Source: a phage
Sequence record: PZ445533.1
Direction: 5' to 3' (one strand)
DNA: 48,914 nucleotides
Shown here: in pieces, positions 4,823-46,050 of the stretch
Layout: each line of letters opens with the position of its first letter
Position numbering within the stretch: the stretch's first letter is position 1
Notes under the pieces: generated by a model
Databases searched by the model: none
Seen by the model: the letters and a program-made list of their open reading frames with translations, nothing else
Told to the model about the DNA's origin: nothing
Program-made: the position numbers and the translations under genes

Positions 4823-5332
4823 ATGGCTAAAATTGGAGCAAGTTATTTTGACACTATGGCGCGTGCGCTTCCTGGTCAGGTATCCGATACTTCGGCGTAT
4901 AACATCGACGGCGCTTGTGTTCTTGACAAGGAAGACGGCATCCCAATCCTGGTTGGCGTGGCTGTTAAGCTAAAAGGAGTTGACTCAATGGGTAATAAGC
5001 TGATCGACGCTATTTCTGGTAGTGGTGATGTTCCTTATGGCGTTGGCATCCGTTCGCACTTTCAAACTACGGCTGATAATGGACGAATGGTTTATGAGGC
5101 TGGCGGCGGAATCAACGTTATGACAGAGGGCCGCGTTTGGATGGTTGGCGATGATACCGACAAGAGCAAAAAACCATCGTATCGTGAGCCTGTAAAAATT
5201 GATGAAAACACTGGCAAGGTGAAAAGTGCTGGCACTATCAATACCAACTGGATTTACACGGGAGATAAAACCACATTTGGAACTGGCGATGATGTGTTGA
5301 CTTTGTTTGAAGTTCAGGTCTTCCCAAGCTAA
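4823..5332 (+). CDS. Capsid accessory/decoration-like protein (paralog 1)
   Basis: 169 aa; shares YNIDG ... GV(A/G)IRS ... W(I)(Y/F)TGD pattern with the next ORF; RBS AAGGAG. Confidence 0.5.
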   Translation: MAKIGASYFDTMARALPGQVSDTSAYNIDGACVLDKEDGIPILVGVAVKLKGVDSMGNKLIDAISGSGDVPYGVGIRSHFQTTADNGRMVYEAGGGINVMTEGRVWMVGDDTDKSKKPSYREPVKIDENTGKVKSAGTINTNWIYTGDKTTFGTGDDVLTLFEVQVFPS

Positions 5333-30140: not shown

Positions 30141-30559
30141 TGGCTATAACTGATAAAGGAGATTATCTTGAGTTTTACGAAAGAGATCCAACCGACACTA
30201 GAAAGGAAGTTAATCACCAGATAGATAGCTTTCAGTGGTTGACTTATGCTCATCCTTACTTGCTGGCGTGGCATACGGTAAACGAGAATGAGAAGTCGAA
30301 AGTAACGGCGATGATTGATCAGCAGTCCGGCTTGGTTAAGGGGGTAAGCGATTTCATCATCCTGATTGGTTCAAACGGAAAATACCCCTTTGCAGCGATT
30401 GAGATCAAACGAGTTAATAAATCAGGCAAGGGGAAAGCATCACCAGTCAGCGATGAACAAAAGGCTTTTTTGCGTCGCGTTCGCAGTTTAGGAGGATTCG
30501 CTGCGGTCGCCTACGGATTTAATCAGTTTAAGTTAGCTATTGAATACATGCTTAAATAG
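30140..30559 (+). CDS. VRR-NUC domain nuclease
   Basis: GVSDFIIL...AAIEIKR...DEQKAFL pattern typical of VRR-NUC PD-(D/E)XK fold; TAATG overlap with helicase. Confidence 0.7.
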   Translation: MAITDKGDYLEFYERDPTDTRKEVNHQIDSFQWLTYAHPYLLAWHTVNENEKSKVTAMIDQQSGLVKGVSDFIILIGSNGKYPFAAIEIKRVNKSGKGKASPVSDEQKAFLRRVRSLGGFAAVAYGFNQFKLAIEYMLK

Positions 30560-30612
30560 CACTTTTTGTTAAAACTGGCGCGATGGATTGCGCCATAATT
30601 CAATAACACGAG
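30553..30612 (+). promoter_or_regulatory. Motif cassette (21-bp box + hairpin + ATAAT) upstream of dam
   Basis: AAATAGCACTTTTTGTTAAAAC with TAG as stop of VRR-NUC gene; hairpin GGCGCGATGGATTGCGCC; CATAAT 22 nt after TTGTTA. Confidence 0.5.
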
Positions 30613-31369: not shown

Positions 31370-31627
31370 ATGAAAAAAGAGAGAAGCGTTTATTTAAATG
31401 AAACTGGCGAGTGGTTGTTATTTCGCGCTATGGTGTGCGATGCACTTGATAAAAACCCTAACGTGAAAAAGATGATTGATTGCGATCCGTGGGAATTTTC
31501 AAGCGCATTAGATATGAGCTTTGAGGATACAAGAAAACTACCTCTTGAAAAATGGCACGAACAAATAAGAAATGACATGCAAGAGTTTGTCGATTCGTGG
31601 AATTTTCAGAACGGAATGATCCACTAA
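31370..31627 (+). CDS. Hypothetical protein
   Basis: 85 aa; stop TAA directly followed by the motif cassette. Confidence 0.5.
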   Translation: MKKERSVYLNETGEWLLFRAMVCDALDKNPNVKKMIDCDPWEFSSALDMSFEDTRKLPLEKWHEQIRNDMQEFVDSWNFQNGMIH

Positions 31628-31690
31628 TAGCACTTTTTGTTAAAACGCCCGGCATTTTGTCGGGCATAATTATTTCATCGAAACGAACGT
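31626..31690 (+). promoter_or_regulatory. Motif cassette
   Basis: AATAGCACTTTTTGTTAAAAC, hairpin GCCCGGCATTTTGTCGGGC, ATAATT, CATCGAAACGAAC, RBS GAGG. Confidence 0.5.
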
Positions 31691-37659: not shown

Positions 37660-37727
37660 CTCCTTTGTTTGTTCGATGTGATTATGCCAGGTTTTTACAC
37701 CTGGCTTTTAACAAAAAGTGCTATTTT
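37660..37727 (-). promoter_or_regulatory. Motif cassette
   Basis: Minus-strand motif containing methyltransferase stop TAG, hairpin GCCAGGTGTAAAAACCTGGC, ATAATC, TCGAACAAACAAAGGAG. Confidence 0.5.
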
Positions 37728-38779: not shown

Positions 38780-38820
38780 TTCCACCTCATTTAAAAGGCG
38801 GCAAAACGCCGCCATATTAA

Positions 38821-39048
38821 TTAAAGAGCACGCCAACTTTGAATATAGAAAGAGTTTTCTTCCAGTAATTCTTTTAACTGATCTTTATTGTATTTGCGCA
38901 CCTTACCGCCTGGATGGATACCAATAAGATAGCCTCCTTTGCCCTCGGTGATAGTGATTTGGCTAATTCCACAAGACTTATCAAGTTTTACAGCCACGCG
39001 GTGATGAGCGTCAATAGTTGACATAATGTTTAAAACTTTTGCTTTCAT
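38821..39048 (-). CDS. Hypothetical protein
   Basis: 75 aa ORF in minus-strand small-gene block. Confidence 0.45.
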   Translation of the reverse strand: MKAKVLNIMSTIDAHHRVAVKLDKSCGISQITITEGKGGYLIGIHPGGKVRKYNKDQLKELLEENSFYIQSWRAL

Positions 39049-39156
39049 TTAAATATCCTCAATTGAAATATGAATGGCGTCGTGCTCTTTTTCCGTCTCC
39101 GCCGTAATGGTCATTTGCAACCGCTACCATCCAGGCATTTTTGAAAATAAATAGCC

Positions 39157-39369
39157 TCATTTCTTATTTTTCATCTTAAATTTATGGCCTGGAACACCAG
39201 CACCAATATAGCCATCGTTGTATTCCATTAAATAAAGGTGAAGGCCATTATCTGAAATTACATGAGGATCTTCTTTGAGATTTCCCATTAGCGGGTATTC
39301 TTTTCCGCGCGTAAATCTCCAAGTTGAGTCATAAGTTTCTACGCATTTAAGTTTTAATTGCTTTGCCAT
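39157..39369 (-). CDS. Hypothetical protein
   Basis: 70 aa; start overlaps upstream stop (ATGG...TAA). Confidence 0.45.
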   Translation of the reverse strand: MAKQLKLKCVETYDSTWRFTRGKEYPLMGNLKEDPHVISDNGLHLYLMEYNDGYIGAGVPGHKFKMKNKK

Positions 39370-39566
39370 TAGATGATCTCCATGTATGTTTCAAAGCCAT
39401 TTAACTTGAACAGGCCGTTTTCACATTTGCGAACGTTCCAAGTTAGCCCTGAGTGGTACGCCTCCATATCATCAAGGTCAATGGTGATTTCAGCACCTTT
39501 CTTAAACAAACCTTTTTCGTGAGACTTGTCGCGCTTAACAACTTTAACATCAACCTGATTTTCCAT
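39369..39566 (-). CDS. Hypothetical protein
   Basis: 65 aa; directly downstream of motif cassette with GAGGA RBS. Confidence 0.5.
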   Translation of the reverse strand: MENQVDVKVVKRDKSHEKGLFKKGAEITIDLDDMEAYHSGLTWNVRKCENGLFKLNGFETYMEII

Positions 39567-39574
39567 CTTTAAAT

Positions 39575-39643
39575 CCTCGTTTGTTGTCGATGCGCTTACT
39601 ATACCAATCAGCAGCGCATCGTTTTTAACAAAAAGTGCTATTT
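39575..39643 (-). promoter_or_regulatory. Motif cassette
   Basis: Minus-strand motif, hairpin GATGCGCT...AGCGCATC with TATAGT in loop, CATCGACAACAAACGAGGA. Confidence 0.5.
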
Positions 39644-39863
39644 AGTCCAGAAATTCGATTTCACGCTCTCCAGTTAACGGATTTACAAGCCAGAATCCGA
39701 GAGGTTCGCCGTGAACACCGCCATAGAATCCAAGCGCCGCCAGATCTTCACCTTTAACGAATACCAGGTTTCCGCTACGGCTTACGTGAGACACGTTAAC
39801 GATAACCGGAAATATGCGATCCTTAAATGCAGGCCGCAGGGCGTAACATCCGTTATTGAGCAA
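39642..39863 (-). CDS. Hypothetical protein
   Basis: 73 aa; stop TAA immediately followed by motif. Confidence 0.45.
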   Translation of the reverse strand: MLNNGCYALRPAFKDRIFPVIVNVSHVSRSGNLVFVKGEDLAALGFYGGVHGEPLGFWLVNPLTGEREIEFLD

Positions 39864-39917
39864 ACGTGCTTTGCGCTAAACTGGAATAGGTGCATTAATT
39901 TTCATGGTTATTACTCC

Positions 39918-40130
39918 TTATCGTAAAGATTTAAAGACGTATAGTTTATTGCGGTAACTATATATCCGCATTGTTATTTCTCGCAGTGCAATATATTCCT
40001 TCCTGTTTTCCGGCAGACTGGCGAGCAACAACAGACAGTATTTATAAGCGCGATCAAGATTCCTTTCCGTGCCCCTGCAATATCCCTTGTTGCGCCTGGA
40101 GCGGTACAGCCATAACAATTTCTTGAACAT
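39918..40130 (-). CDS. Hypothetical basic small protein (uncertain)
   Basis: 70 aa from internal ATG placed 1 nt after stop of upstream gene (TGAAATG); Arg/Lys-rich. Confidence 0.3.
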   Translation of the reverse strand: MFKKLLWLYRSRRNKGYCRGTERNLDRAYKYCLLLLASLPENRKEYIALREITMRIYSYRNKLYVFKSLR

Positions 40131-40131
40131 T

Positions 40132-40341
40132 TCAGATCCGCCCATACAGATCGCAAACTTCGTTGATAAAACAGCGTTGAGACTCTTTATCCTGCTTCTC
40201 AAACATCGCACGGCACTCATAGCGGTGATTATGTACGATGACAACAACCATATTTTCAGGTGCTGACGGGTGACGCGCGGAAGCGTCGCAGATTGAAACA
40301 TCCATACCCATCTCATGTGCTTTCTTGATCACATCCAACAT
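40132..40341 (-). CDS. Hypothetical protein
   Basis: 69 aa from second ATG; protein-like composition. Confidence 0.4.
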   Translation of the reverse strand: MLDVIKKAHEMGMDVSICDASARHPSAPENMVVVIVHNHRYECRAMFEKQDKESQRCFINEVCDLYGRI

Positions 40342-40595
40342 TTTTTCTTCTCCTGCAATAAGCAAACATCATTGATAAAATCAGCACGGCCCTTAATGTT
40401 GCTGATGTGGAACGTCTTTTCAGCGTACAGGCCATCACCTTCAATCACGATCATTACGCGAGTCGGTTTATTCACGGGCGCACACGAAAAGAGTGGTCGC
40501 GCCGGAAGAAATTTAGTGGTCACATCCAGGTTAGCCCTGGCGGCCCTGCAAAATGCCTCCGCCAGATCCAAATCATTTTCGGTAATCACCGCCAT
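40329..40595 (-). CDS. Hypothetical protein
   Basis: 88 aa; ATGA-type coupling with upstream gene. Confidence 0.45.
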   Translation of the reverse strand: MAVITENDLDLAEAFCRAARANLDVTTKFLPARPLFSCAPVNKPTRVMIVIEGDGLYAEKTFHISNIKGRADFINDVCLLQEKKKCWM

Positions 40596-40867
40596 TACTT
40601 TTTGATCTCCTTACTGATAAATTTCAGCACATGGCGCAAGAAAACTTCGTTGTTGATAGTCGCTGGCAATTCTTCTTTCACTTCTTGCGGCAGATAGATA
40701 TTGCCGTGCCAGGTCAAGCAATCGTAGTTGATACGATAAGAGCAAAGCCACTCGCAATCGTTATCTGCTTCCCAAATGCAGAGTTGCAGAACATCGCCAA
40801 AATCTTCAACAGTCAGATCCAGACCGTGACGCTTAGCGAAATTGAAAGTGGTTTTGCTGATGTTCAT
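40595..40867 (-). CDS. Hypothetical protein, first gene of leftward small-gene operon
   Basis: 90 aa; AGGAG RBS; motif cassette immediately upstream. Confidence 0.55.
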   Translation of the reverse strand: MNISKTTFNFAKRHGLDLTVEDFGDVLQLCIWEADNDCEWLCSYRINYDCLTWHGNIYLPQEVKEELPATINNEVFLRHVLKFISKEIKK

Positions 40868-40874
40868 TTACTAT

Positions 40875-40946
40875 CTCCTGAGCGGTTCGTTTCGATGTGT
40901 GTAATGTACCCGATCAGGCGGCCTGATTTTTAACAAAAAGTGCTAT
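40875..40946 (-). promoter_or_regulatory. Motif cassette at head of leftward small-gene operon
   Basis: Minus-strand motif, hairpin ATCAGGCCGCCTGAT, TACATT, CATCGAAACGAACC, RBS AGGAG. Confidence 0.5.
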
Positions 40947-40949
40947 TTG

Positions 40950-41485: not shown

Positions 41486-41514
41486 TTGACACATTAAATA
41501 GCATTATTGATAAT
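41486..41514 (+). promoter_or_regulatory. Sigma70-like promoter (TTGACA-17-GATAAT) for rightward operon
   Basis: TTGACA 41486-41491, 17-nt spacer, GATAAT 41509-41514, RBS AGGAGG and ATG 41544 downstream. Confidence 0.6.
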
Positions 41515-42008: not shown

Positions 42009-42277
42009 AAAAGGCATTAATCAGCGTTTTGGCGGCAATGGCATTCCTGACCGGATGCAAAGAAGATGGCGCGCATGTTGGCAATGTGCAGATGGCTAAC
42101 CCTGGTGATGACTACAGCGTAAGGGAGCTATTCACCGCTGACGGTTGCACCGTTTACCGATTCTATGACGATCGCACTGTTTACTTCACCAACTGCAAGG
42201 GCACTACTAGCTGGGAAGTGTCGAAAAGCAATGGCAAAGGCACGAAGACAGAACATATGACCGTCGAGACAAAATAG
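42005..42277 (+). CDS. Lipoprotein (second superinfection-exclusion candidate)
   Basis: 90 aa; signal peptide and lipobox LTGC; ATGA overlap with upstream gene; stop TAG within motif. Confidence 0.55.
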   Translation: MKKALISVLAAMAFLTGCKEDGAHVGNVQMANPGDDYSVRELFTADGCTVYRFYDDRTVYFTNCKGTTSWEVSKSNGKGTKTEHMTVETK

Positions 42278-42335
42278 CACTTTTTGTTAAAACTCAAATG
42301 TGGGGCCAGGTATAATGGCCTCACTTTCAACGAGA
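42272..42335 (+). promoter_or_regulatory. Motif cassette
   Basis: Motif with TAG stop of lipoprotein gene; hairpin GGCC...GGCC with TATAAT in loop, 21 nt after TTGTTA. Confidence 0.5.
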
Positions 42336-45699: not shown

Positions 45700-45990
45700 A
45701 TGGCAACTATGCGAAAAATGCTTATCAATGGCTTTGAAAGAGAAATTCGCCGTCGAGGCTGGGATGATTCTAAAAATTCACCTTACACTATCAATCGCGG
45801 AGAGTATAAATCAGTTCGACATTTTGCACGATGCCTGGCTGGATGCTACGACCTGGAGCATCCTTTCCCGTTCATGAACGAAACGCTAACCGAAATGATG
45901 GAAGAGGCCGCAACTCAAGATCGACCATTGACGCAACATGATTTTGATGAGTTTGCGCACTGGGAAATCGAATGTGCGCTATATAAATAG
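45700..45990 (+). CDS. Hypothetical protein
   Basis: 96 aa, AGGAGAA RBS; stop TAG within motif. Confidence 0.55.
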   Translation: MATMRKMLINGFEREIRRRGWDDSKNSPYTINRGEYKSVRHFARCLAGCYDLEHPFPFMNETLTEMMEEAATQDRPLTQHDFDEFAHWEIECALYK

Positions 45991-46050
45991 CACTTTTTGT
46001 TAAAACCAGCTTCGGCTGGTTTTGTATTATATGCGCATCGACAACAGAGG
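45985..46050 (+). promoter_or_regulatory. Motif cassette
   Basis: Motif with TAG stop, hairpin CCAGCTTCGGCTGG + T-run, TATTAT, CATCGACAACAGAGGAGG. Confidence 0.5.

What the first reader, a model, noticed from the sequence alone, without database searches (positions are those of the whole stretch)
38821..40867. Block of eight small unknown genes behind a motif-cassette promoter: candidate host-takeover or anti-defence genes
Eight tightly coupled ORFs of 65-90 aa on the minus strand (40867 down to 38821), none with recognisable motifs; one putative product (39918-40130) is strongly basic and another region encodes a Cys-rich alternative frame. Dense arrays of small early genes in virulent phages are where anti-defence and host shut-off proteins are typically found. 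I cannot assign functions from sequence alone.
Basis: inference. Interest (0 to 1): 0.4.

Follow-up and report, generated by a model that had tools for sequence, protein, structure and literature searches.

The report
Accessory small-gene block of T1-like phage
This is the variable small-gene stretch of a T1-like coliphage (genus Warwickvirus): nine real genes, one of them broken by a stop codon and one identical to a protein whose close relative is known to set off a bacterial immune protein, so it is largely ordinary and already partly explained.

Summary
The eight minus-strand ORFs exist, and all evolve as protein-coding genes (dN/dS 0.06-0.36). The description needs four corrections.

1. 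The block is two units, not one. Each sits behind a copy of a 21-nt motif cassette found 16 times in the genome. A hairpin terminator lies just after the last gene.
2. The ORF at 39642-39863 is the remnant of an 87-codon gene (start 39905). It carries an amber stop at codon 10 that is private to this genome.
3. A conserved 33-codon gene (39059-39160) was missed.
4. One ORF does have a recognisable family. ORF 39369-39566 matches Pfam PF25180 "Gp54" (E 1.7e-38; PDB 9axb). It is 100% identical to SECphi27 Gp19.

Gp54 of phage Bas11 directly activates the CapRelSJ46 defence protein. Gp19 was tested and does not.

The basic ORF is real (pI 10.3) and is a genus-restricted orphan. The Cys-rich alternative frame is not coding.

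Relatives swap, gain, lose or break these genes, sometimes at the motif cassettes. Bas11 mutants that delete gene 54 and its neighbours still form plaques.

Two confident structure models (an RWD-like fold and a small alpha/beta fold) gave no function. Anti-defence or host-takeover roles remain plausible but undemonstrated.

The parts
40903..40947 (-). Promoter-like motif cassette P1. It consists of the 21-nt motif AATAGCACTTTTTGTTAAAAA (40947-40927), an 18-nt spacer containing an inverted repeat, and the -10-like hexamer TACATT (40908-40903). A conserved leader CATCGAAACGAAC, a ribosome-binding site and the g1 ATG follow.
   Evidence: The motif occurs 16 times in the window against 0.01 expected. 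The aligned cassettes show a fixed 17-18 nt spacing to a -10-like hexamer. The generic sigma-70 scan does not call it.
40595..40867 (-). g1, 90 aa, acidic. It belongs to phrog_6147 and has an RWD-like alpha-beta4-alpha fold. It is the most conserved and most widely spread gene of the block.
40329..40595 (-). g2, 88 aa. Found only in a subset of Warwickvirus. Weak paralogue of g3.
   Evidence: Present in 7 of 18 loci. BLASTP against g3: 25% identity, E 0.005. dN/dS 0.06. No family or PDB match.
40132..40341 (-). g3, 69 aa. Warwickvirus subset, with a distant 79-81 aa relative (about 30% identity) in Hanrivervirus. Frameshifted in phage FritzSarasin (Bas04).
   Evidence: A 1-nt deletion at codon 29 in L001 fuses it to the g4 frame. 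dN/dS 0.14.
39918..40130 (-). g4, 70 aa (75 if started at ATG 40145). Strongly basic orphan protein restricted to Warwickvirus.
   Evidence: pI 10.3, net charge +12.5. 12 of 15 variable sites are at codon position 3. dN/dS 0.10. 58 phage records, all at least 95% identical. Among 1.84 billion representative proteins only its own cluster matches, plus a spurious repeat protein.
39642..39905 (-). g5, an 87-codon gene disrupted here by an amber codon at codon 10 (TAG at 39878-39876).
   Evidence: An intact 87-aa homologue exists in JLBYU01. T versus A at 39878, in the window only. The amber allele is in 0 IMG/VR contigs and the wild-type allele in 4. No tRNA gene in the window. The family is in 181 phage records of Tempevirinae and Tunavirinae.
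39598..39642 (-). Promoter-like motif cassette P2. It consists of the motif (39642-39622), an 18-nt spacer, and the -10-like hexamer TATAGT (39603-39598) lying within a hairpin.
   Evidence: The same cassette lies in the 75-nt gap upstream of Bas11 gene 54. There, escape mutations 'immediately upstream' lowered Gp54 expression, and the native promoter worked in uninfected E. coli (PMC11578894).
39369..39566 (-). g6, 65 aa. Member of the Gp54 family and identical to SECphi27 Gp19.
   Evidence: Pfam PF25180: E 1.7e-38, 130.7 bits against a cut-off of 27. PDB 9axb/9erv Gp54, E 4e-17. 100% identical to L011:1687-1884. It has V7 and A25 where the activating Bas11 protein has A7 and I25.
39157..39369 (-). 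g7, 70 aa, with a W-x-F-T-x-G-x-E-Y motif. Homologous to the N-terminal domain of SECphi27 gp20. Variable presence among relatives.
   Evidence: BLASTP against gp20, E 2e-6. 70 phage records. Absent from Hanrivervirus loci. dN/dS 0.36.
   Evidence: phrog_32259 E 3.3e-20. Present in 17 of 18 loci. A homologous stretch in Citrobacter phage Stevie (L019) gave dN/dS 0.06. Annotated in Bas04 and Bas05.
38821..39048 (-). g8, 75 aa, small alpha/beta protein. Conserved across the whole family Drexlerviridae, usually just upstream of the DNA methyltransferase gene.
38790..38813 (-). Intrinsic-terminator-like hairpin GGCGGC-GTTTT-GCCGCC followed by TTTTAAAT. It begins 8 nt after the g8 stop codon.
   Evidence: and the sequence.

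Best explanation
The region is the variable, dispensable accessory-gene part of the leftward replication/DNA-modification gene cluster of a Warwickvirus phage (Drexlerviridae, Tempevirinae).

It is built from promoter-led modules. Cassette P1 drives g1-g2-g3-g4-(g5). Cassette P2 drives g6-g7-g7b-g8. A hairpin terminator follows g8.

The cassette (21-nt motif, 18-nt spacer, -10-like hexamer) is the phage's general promoter unit. It is most likely read by the host RNA polymerase.

The products are small single-domain proteins with no enzymatic signatures. They most likely act by binding host or defence proteins.

One of them, g6, is a Gp54-family beta-barrel protein. In Bas11 this family binds the antitoxin domain of CapRelSJ46 and switches the toxin on. 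The allele here is identical to SECphi27 Gp19 and carries V7 and A25, so it should not be sensed by CapRelSJ46.

What is shown: gene reality, the family assignment of g6, modular variability, and two predicted folds.
What is taken from the literature on relatives: dispensability, promoter activity, the lack of toxicity of Bas11 Gp54, and the non-activation of CapRelSJ46 by SECphi27 Gp19.
What is inferred: early expression, and host- or defence-directed binding functions for the other genes.
For: Identity of the phage and block:
- 98.8% identity to phage orkinos and dozens of other Warwickvirus genomes.

Coding:
- dN/dS 0.06-0.36 for all nine genes.
- Third-position bias in g4.

Modules and promoter:
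- The motif occurs 16 times against 0.01 expected, always co-oriented with the downstream genes.
- Two copies lie in the block.
- The same motif is annotated as repeat_region in phage Stevie, and is present in Webervirus and Tunavirus loci.
- Bas11 has it in the 75-nt gap upstream of gene 54. There, upstream escape mutations lowered expression, and the native promoter works in uninfected cells.

Variability:
- g2, g3, g4 and g7 are present in only some relatives.
- Extra genes are inserted between g5 and g6 in SECphi27, Bas04 and IMG/VR contigs, and these insertions are bounded by an extra motif copy.
- g3 is frameshifted in Bas04. g5 carries an amber codon here.

g6:
- Pfam PF25180, PDB 9axb, 100% identical to SECphi27 Gp19.
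- Functional data from PMC11578894.

Small binder-like folds:
- g1 is RWD-like.
- g8 is a small alpha/beta protein.

Horizontal spread of g1:
- It occurs in Krischvirus, Vequintavirinae, a jumbo phage and a podovirus.
Against: - No expression data exist for this phage. The generic sigma-70 scan does not call P1 or P2, and the TTGTTA to -10 distance of about 22 nt is non-canonical.
- The link between the Bas11 promoter mutations and the motif cassette is positional only. The exact mutated bases were not available to me.
- No gene other than g6 has any functional homologue.
- g8 is conserved family-wide and linked to the methyltransferase, which fits a core phage role better than an accessory one.
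- g1 is unusually conserved (93-99%) for a supposed arms-race gene.
- The only documented activity of the Gp54 family harms the phage (it triggers immunity). Its benefit to the phage is unknown.
Confidence: 0.6

Rival explanations
1. Several of these genes are true counter-defence (anti-immunity) proteins. Each inhibits a specific bacterial defence system. Gp54-family sensing by CapRel would then be a guard-type response to such an inhibitor, as with Ocr and PARIS.
For: - The genes lie in a hypervariable, dispensable region. They are small and, in the case of g1, horizontally mobile.
- The authors of PMC11578894 propose this for Gp54.
- g6 and g7 have the highest dN/dS in the block, 0.34 and 0.36.
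Against: - No homology to any known anti-defence protein was found in the libraries available.
- The fold similarities are generic.
- SECphi27, which has nearly the same block, is still blocked by CapRelSJ46 and by the Bil ubiquitin-like system.
- There is no experimental inhibition data.
Confidence: 0.3
2. The genes are host-takeover or shut-off factors. The basic protein g4, for example, would bind nucleic acid or a host machine and arrest host functions early in infection.
For: - g4 has pI 10.3 and net charge +12.5 in 70 residues, and is under purifying selection.
- The position behind the phage's promoter cassettes suggests transcription by host polymerase.
Against: - g4 exists only in part of one genus (58 records), and close relatives such as Bas05 lack it. 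It therefore cannot be a required takeover step.
- Gp54 of Bas11 is not toxic when expressed alone.
- There are no toxicity data for the other genes.
Confidence: 0.15
3. Part of the block, at least g8 and perhaps g7b and g5, serves conserved phage DNA metabolism or regulation together with the downstream methyltransferase and helicase. These genes would not be host-directed at all.
For: - g8 homologues are in 681 Drexlerviridae records. In several genera they sit directly before the DNA methyltransferase, and in Webervirus they overlap it.
- g7b and g5 are conserved across genera.
- The downstream genes are a Dcm-like methyltransferase and a helicase.
Against: - The g8 fold search gave only generic beta-sheet-core matches and no nucleic-acid-binding or regulatory family.
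- g5 is knocked out by an amber codon in this evidently viable genome.
- Bas11 tolerates deletions of gene 54 'and nearby genes'.
Confidence: 0.25
4. The ORFs are chance open frames or decaying pseudogenes with no function.
For: - Most are annotated only as hypothetical, and g4 is often not annotated at all.
- One gene is amber-disrupted here, and another is frameshifted in Bas04.
Against: - dN/dS is far below 1 for all nine genes.
- They have ribosome-binding sites and coupled starts.
- AF2 models for g1 and g8 have pLDDT above 91.
- A relative of g6 has a solved structure.
Confidence: 0.03

Closest known systems
Gp54 of phage Bas11 (JohannLBurckhardt), Pfam PF25180, PDB 9axb/9erv. Trigger of the fused toxin-antitoxin CapRelSJ46 (Zhang et al., Nature 2024, PMC11578894).
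   Same: g6 (39369-39566) is a full-length family member: 130.7 bits, 54% identical to Bas11 Gp54. It has the same length and the same genomic position, behind the same motif cassette and upstream of the g8 homologue and the Dcm-like methyltransferase. It is 100% identical to SECphi27 Gp19, a homologue studied in the same paper.
   Different: It carries V7 and A25 instead of A7 and I25. In the Bas11 protein, A7V or I25V each largely abolish activation. The identical SECphi27 Gp19 did not activate CapRelSJ46. It is therefore a family member but not expected to be a CapRelSJ46 trigger. The native function of the family is unknown.
Accessory or 'moron'-type variable early regions of virulent coliphages (T7 class I genes such as ocr and 0.4, T5 pre-early genes, T4 hyperplastic regions).
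   Same: Dense arrays of small, non-essential genes of unknown function. They have their own promoters, turn over by whole-gene gain and loss, and spread horizontally between unrelated phages.
   Different: No gene here is homologous to any characterised member of those regions. Expression timing has not been measured. The promoter unit is a Drexlerviridae-specific 21-nt motif cassette, not a canonical sigma-70 promoter or a phage-polymerase promoter.
Ksap1 of Dhillonvirus phages, trigger of KpAvs2 (Bechon et al., Nat Commun 2024, PMC11564622).
   Same: A roughly 74-aa dispensable protein of unknown function, encoded next to a methyltransferase gene, and sensed directly by a defence protein. 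Natural variants escape sensing. This is the same logic as the Gp54 family.
   Different: No sequence relationship. Ksap1 homologues were reported only in Dhillonvirus.
RWD / UBC-like alpha+beta sandwich domains (for example kinetochore Mcm21, Mad1 and Spc25, and the GCN2 RWD domain).
   Different: Sequence identity is only 7-13%, with no family-level sequence match. There is no catalytic cysteine at the E2 position. This is fold-level resemblance only, and RWD domains are generic protein-protein interaction modules.

Membership tests
Gp54 family (Pfam PF25180, 'phage antiviral trigger protein Gp54') | Full-length match to the Pfam model above its gathering score | tested here: met
   g6: 130.7 bits against a cut-off of 27, E 1.7e-38, residues 1-65 on profile positions 1-65 of 65.
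Gp54 family (Pfam PF25180, 'phage antiviral trigger protein Gp54') | Sequence homology to the structurally solved Gp54 of Bas11 | tested here: met
   PDB 9axb_A and 9erv, E 4.4e-17 over the whole protein. 54% identity with 31 invariant columns.
Gp54 family (Pfam PF25180, 'phage antiviral trigger protein Gp54') | Syntenic position in Tempevirinae genomes: behind an intergenic cassette, upstream of the g8 homologue and the Dcm-like methyltransferase | tested here: met
   Same order in SECphi27 (gp19), Bas05 (gp57), Bas04 and Bas11 (gene 54).
Functional CapRelSJ46 triggers (the Gp54-Bas11 type) | Residues A7, G24 and I25 needed for activation of CapRelSJ46 | tested here: not met
   g6 has V7, G24 and A25. 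A7V and I25V each largely abolish activation, and the identical protein SECphi27 Gp19 did not activate CapRelSJ46 (PMC11578894).
Known anti-defence protein families | Sequence homology to a characterised inhibitor of a defence system | tested here: not met
   No hit to a protein of known function in Pfam, PHROGs, NCBIfam or PDB for g1-g5, g7, g7b or g8. Dedicated anti-defence libraries (dbAPIS, AntiDefenseFinder) were not available, so this test is incomplete.
Known anti-defence protein families | Demonstrated inhibition of a defence system | not testable with these tools
   This needs phage knock-outs or trans-expression on strains carrying defined defence systems.
Accessory (non-core, dispensable) phage genes | Patchy presence among close relatives, and tolerance of loss | tested here: met
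   g2, g3, g4 and g7 are absent from many relatives, and alternative genes are inserted in others. g3 is frameshifted in Bas04 and g5 is amber-disrupted here. Bas11 escape mutants delete gene 54 plus neighbours. The criterion is not met for g8, and only weakly for g1, which are present in nearly all relatives.
RWD / UBC-like fold (g1) | alpha-beta4-alpha(-alpha) sandwich topology superposable on RWD domains | tested here: met
RWD / UBC-like fold (g1) | Sequence-level family membership, or an E2 catalytic Cys after strand 4 | tested here: not met
   No Pfam match. The only nearly invariant Cys (C38) lies between strands 2 and 3.

The most novel reading that the evidence does not exclude
g1 (phrog_6147) may be a new, widely mobile family of phage-encoded host- or defence-protein binders. 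It is a 90-aa RWD-like protein with nearly invariant surface motifs (ADNDCEW, GNIYLP, KEELPAT). It occurs in 432 phage genomes of unrelated groups: Drexlerviridae, Krischvirus, Vequintavirinae, a jumbo phage and a podovirus.

In addition, the 21-nt motif cassettes may act not only as promoters but as portable recombination junctions that let Drexlerviridae swap 'promoter plus small gene' modules. The evidence here excludes neither idea.
Probability: 0.2. Interest if true: 0.55.

Novelty: new member of a known kind. Interest (0 to 1): 0.3.

Why it matters
The block shows how a T1-like phage keeps a swappable set of small genes behind copies of one standard promoter cassette.

It links one of these genes to a characterised immune-sensing interaction, CapRelSJ46 and Gp54. 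It also predicts that this phage should not be sensed through its Gp54 homologue. Sensing through the capsid protein remains possible: the capsid protein keeps I85, L114 and I115, the wild-type residues at sites where escape substitutions arose in SECphi27 and Bas10.

For function discovery it narrows the targets:
- g1: very conserved, spread across phage families, with a confident fold.
- g4: a basic orphan.
- g8: conserved family-wide and linked to the methyltransferase.

Otherwise the region is ordinary. Near-identical copies are already public and are annotated as hypothetical proteins.

Tried and rejected
- PADLOC and NCBIfam scans of all ten small proteins gave nothing.
- PDB sequence searches for g1, g2, g3, g4, g5, g7, g8 and g10 gave nothing significant.
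- Rfam and tRNA scans of the region and window gave nothing. There is therefore no hidden RNA gene and no suppressor tRNA for the amber codon.
- Fold searches:
  - g1 against PDB gave an RWD-like fold only.
  - g1 against BFVD gave only uncharacterised homologues.
  - g8 against PDB gave generic matches to the sheet cores of papain-like and DUB domains and to YkuJ, with no conserved catalytic residues.
  - AFDB50 was unavailable.
- I considered that g4 is a TPR-like fragment, because a 2009-aa protein matched in eight stretches. I rejected this: the target is a repetitive protein, pairwise E is only 0.006, and there is no TPR Pfam hit.
- I considered that g1 is a decoy for ubiquitin-like (Bil) defence because of its RWD/UBC-like fold. 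SECphi27 carries a 98% identical g1 and is still efficiently restricted by Bil, so this is unlikely for that system.
- I considered that Ksap1 (the KpAvs2 trigger) might be related. It is Dhillonvirus-specific.
- A literature search for the motif sequence found no relevant paper.
- Searches for Drexlerviridae transcriptomes found none bearing on timing.
- The apparent similarity of g5 to SECphi27 gp20 is limited to 14 residues and was dropped.
- Alternative cassette genes from relatives have no known function either; the only hit is DUF7170.
Full report
What the window is.
The 2.5 kb around the finding is 96-99% identical to more than 60 sequenced Escherichia phages of the genus Warwickvirus (Drexlerviridae, Tempevirinae). 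These include orkinos, tonn, swan01, SECphi27 and FritzSarasin/Bas04. No public record is identical over the right 21 kb; the best is 96% identity over 83%. In those records the genes under the finding are almost all called 'hypothetical protein'. The few other names (DsbD, TamB, polynucleotide phosphorylase) appear in only a few records (the JLBYU series, XY3, phiE31-2, SECphi27). No family search here supports them.

Checking the observation.
Reading the strand shows ribosome-binding sites and coupled junctions:
- TAATG overlaps at g1/g2 and g6/g7.
- A 13-nt overlap at g2/g3.
- TGAaATG at g3/g4.
- ATGA at g7/g7b.

I tested coding potential against 18 or more related loci fetched from GenBank and IMG/VR. 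Each gene shows purifying selection. Nei-Gojobori dN/dS against the most divergent ungapped relative is 0.07, 0.06, 0.14, 0.10, 0.23, 0.34, 0.36, 0.06 and 0.10 for g1, g2, g3, g4, g5, g6, g7, g7b and g8.

For the basic ORF g4 (39918-40130), 12 of 15 variable sites among eight genomes are at the third codon position of its frame. The basic protein is therefore real (pI 10.3, net charge +12.5). The overlapping Cys-rich frame is not the coding frame.

Four corrections to the observation.
1. The ORF listed as 39642-39863 starts at a TTG with no ribosome-binding site. In relatives the gene starts at ATG 39905 behind AAGGAG and is 87 codons long. In this window alone, codon 10 is TAG instead of AAG: T at 39878 against A in seven relatives. 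The amber allele is in none of the IMG/VR contigs, while the wild-type 29-mer is in four. The phage has no tRNA gene. So g5 is knocked out here, or at best re-initiated, or the base is a sequencing error.
2. A 33-codon gene, g7b (39059-39160), lies between g7 and g8. It matches phrog_32259 at E 3e-20, is present in 17 of 18 loci, and has dN/dS 0.06.
3. The block is not a single coupled array, as described in the next section.
4. One ORF does have a recognisable family (see the section on g6).

Transcription units.
The 21-nt motif AATAGCACTTTTTGTTAAAA[A/C] occurs 16 times in the window, against 0.01 expected by chance. It is always intergenic and points toward the downstream genes.

Aligning the copies shows a fixed architecture:
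- the motif;
- 17-18 nt that usually form an inverted repeat;
- a -10-like hexamer (CATAAT, TATAAT, TATAGT or TACATT);
- a conserved leader (CATCGAAACGAAC or CATCGACAACAA);
- a ribosome-binding site and the ATG.

Two perfect motif copies lie in the finding: at 40947-40927 before g1, and at 39642-39622 in the 75-nt gap before g6. A GC-rich hairpin followed by a T-run (38813-38790) follows the g8 stop codon. So there are two promoter-led modules, g1-g5 and g6-g8.

The generic sigma-70 scan does not call these sites, and the distance from TTGTTA to the -10 element is about 22 nt. The promoter assignment therefore rests on three things:
- Architecture.
- Conservation. The same motif is annotated as 'repeat_region' in Citrobacter phage Stevie, and occurs in Webervirus and Tunavirus loci.
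- Published data on a relative. In Bas11 the 75-nt gap upstream of gene 54 contains exactly this cassette. [quoted passage not shown] These lowered Gp54 levels, and a gp54-Flag construct with its native promoter was expressed in uninfected E. coli MG1655 (PMC11578894). I could not see the exact mutated bases, so this link is positional.

The one gene with a known family.
g6 (39369-39566, 65 aa) matches Pfam PF25180 'Phage antiviral trigger protein Gp54' end to end (130.7 bits, cut-off 27, E 1.7e-38). It also matches the solved structures 9axb and 9erv.

Gp54 of Bas11 is a 66-aa protein that directly binds the C-terminal antitoxin domain of the fused toxin-antitoxin CapRelSJ46. This releases the tRNA-pyrophosphorylating toxin. 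Gp54 is non-essential and not toxic by itself. Its benefit to the phage is unknown; the authors suggest it might inhibit another defence system.

g6 is 100% identical to SECphi27 Gp19 and to the Bas04 homologue. In that study the SECphi27, Bas5, Bas8 and Bas10 homologues did not activate CapRelSJ46. The single changes A7V or I25V largely abolish activation by the Bas11 protein. g6 has V7 and A25. So g6 is a firm family member, but it fails the test for a CapRelSJ46 trigger.

The family occurs in 215 phage records, nearly all Drexlerviridae.

The other genes.
No other ORF matched a family of known function in Pfam, PHROGs, NCBIfam, PADLOC or PDB.

- g1 (90 aa, acidic) is the most striking.
  - It is 93-99% identical in all related loci, even where its neighbours are 65-85% identical.
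  - It has homologues in 432 phage records, including Krischvirus (JSE), Vequintavirinae, phapecoctaviruses, the jumbo phage K64-1, a podovirus, and Erwinia and Vibrio phages. All are uncharacterised.
  - A 54-sequence alignment shows nearly invariant motifs.
  - The AF2 model is confident (pLDDT 91.5).
  - BFVD returned only uncharacterised homologues.
  - This indicates a protein-binding module, not a function.
- g8 (75 aa) occurs in 681 records covering all Drexlerviridae genera. It typically sits right before the DNA methyltransferase. Its model (pLDDT 93.4) gives only generic sheet-core matches.
- g4 is an orphan. It is in 58 records, all Warwickvirus and all at least 95% identical. Among 1.84 billion representative proteins it has no true relative.
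- g2 and g3 are weak paralogues.
- g7 is homologous to the N-terminal domain of SECphi27 gp20.

Variability.
Across the fetched loci, g1, g5, g6, g7b and g8 are nearly always present, while g2, g3, g4 and g7 come and go.
- SECphi27 and Bas04 carry two extra genes between g5 and g6.
- Some IMG/VR contigs carry a different pair there.
- In both cases the insertion is bounded by an extra copy of the motif cassette.
- Many relatives have a 93-aa gene after g6 that this window lacks.
- Bas04 has a 1-nt deletion that frameshifts g3.
- Bas11 escape mutants delete gene 54 and neighbouring genes and still form plaques.

This is the behaviour of an accessory region made of promoter-plus-gene modules.

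Interpretation.
The best-supported reading is an accessory, largely dispensable region expressed from the phage's standard promoter cassettes. It encodes small binder-type proteins, one of which belongs to a family that a defence protein has learned to sense.

The evidence does not show that any of these genes inhibits a defence system or shuts off the host. SECphi27, which has almost the same block, is still restricted by CapRelSJ46 (through its capsid protein) and by the Bil system.

g8, and perhaps g7b and g5, look more like conserved phage functions than fast-evolving weapons.

Verdict.
The region is a new, near-identical member of a known kind of phage accessory block. Interest is modest. 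The most promising leads are g1, g4 and the cassette-bounded module exchange.

Noticed in passing
Window-wide, 16 sites, for example 30555-30575(+), 31626-31646(+), 37705-37725(-), 42273-42293(+) and 45986-46006(+): A 21-nt motif, AATAGCACTTTTTGTTAAAA[A/C], sits 17-18 nt upstream of a -10-like hexamer. The spacer usually forms a hairpin, and in some copies the -10 hexamer lies in the loop or the 3' arm. The motif-to-hexamer geometry is not that of a canonical sigma-70 promoter (TTGTTA lies about 22 nt from the -10). The cassette might double as a terminator or processing site for the upstream gene. The same motif occurs in Tlsvirus, Webervirus, Tunavirus and Henuseptimavirus loci.
   Followed up: partly
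window:39876-39878 (-): A private amber codon (AAG to TAG) at codon 10 of the otherwise conserved 87-codon gene g5. It may be a real knock-out, an artefact of propagation on a suppressor host, or a sequencing error.
   Followed up: yes
window:38442-38666 (-): Just outside the finding lies a very acidic 74-aa protein (pI 4.05, net charge -11.5) with a C-terminal CGC-x6-C-x2-C motif. It overlaps the start of the Dcm-like methyltransferase gene and is conserved in Tempevirinae (phrog_9323). Its charge resembles that of DNA-mimic anti-restriction proteins. No PDB or Pfam match.
   Followed up: partly
window:38663-38779 (-): A 38-aa hydrophobic (single-pass membrane-like) peptide gene immediately after the terminator hairpin. 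It is conserved at 51-97% identity in relatives and is mis-named 'TamB' in some records.
   Followed up: no
window:40948-41543: A roughly 600-nt gene-poor, AT-rich divergent intergenic region. It contains short direct repeats (ATAACAAAAAATAAC, AAGTAATCA) and a purine/pyrimidine-skewed low-complexity stretch. A near-consensus sigma-70 promoter (TTGACA-17-GATAAT, 41486-41514, + strand) serves the rightward operon. The region could hold regulatory or origin-like elements. Hanrivervirus relatives have an extra gene here.
   Followed up: no
window:6256-7227 (+): The major capsid protein has I85, L114 and I115. These are the wild-type residues at positions where escape substitutions arose in SECphi27 (L114P, I115F) and Bas10 (I85T, I115F), allowing escape from CapRelSJ46. 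If this phage is sensed by CapRelSJ46, the capsid protein rather than the Gp54 homologue would be the likelier trigger.
   Followed up: partly
L001 (FritzSarasin/Bas04) 4828-5250: The annotated 140-aa 'hypothetical protein' bas04_0060 is an artefactual fusion. A 1-nt deletion in g3 (codon 29) shifts reading into the g4 frame.
   Followed up: yes
L020 and L021 (Webervirus) 1989-2228: In Klebsiella weberviruses the g8 homologue overlaps the start of the DNA methyltransferase gene, which suggests translational coupling and a possible functional link.
   Followed up: no
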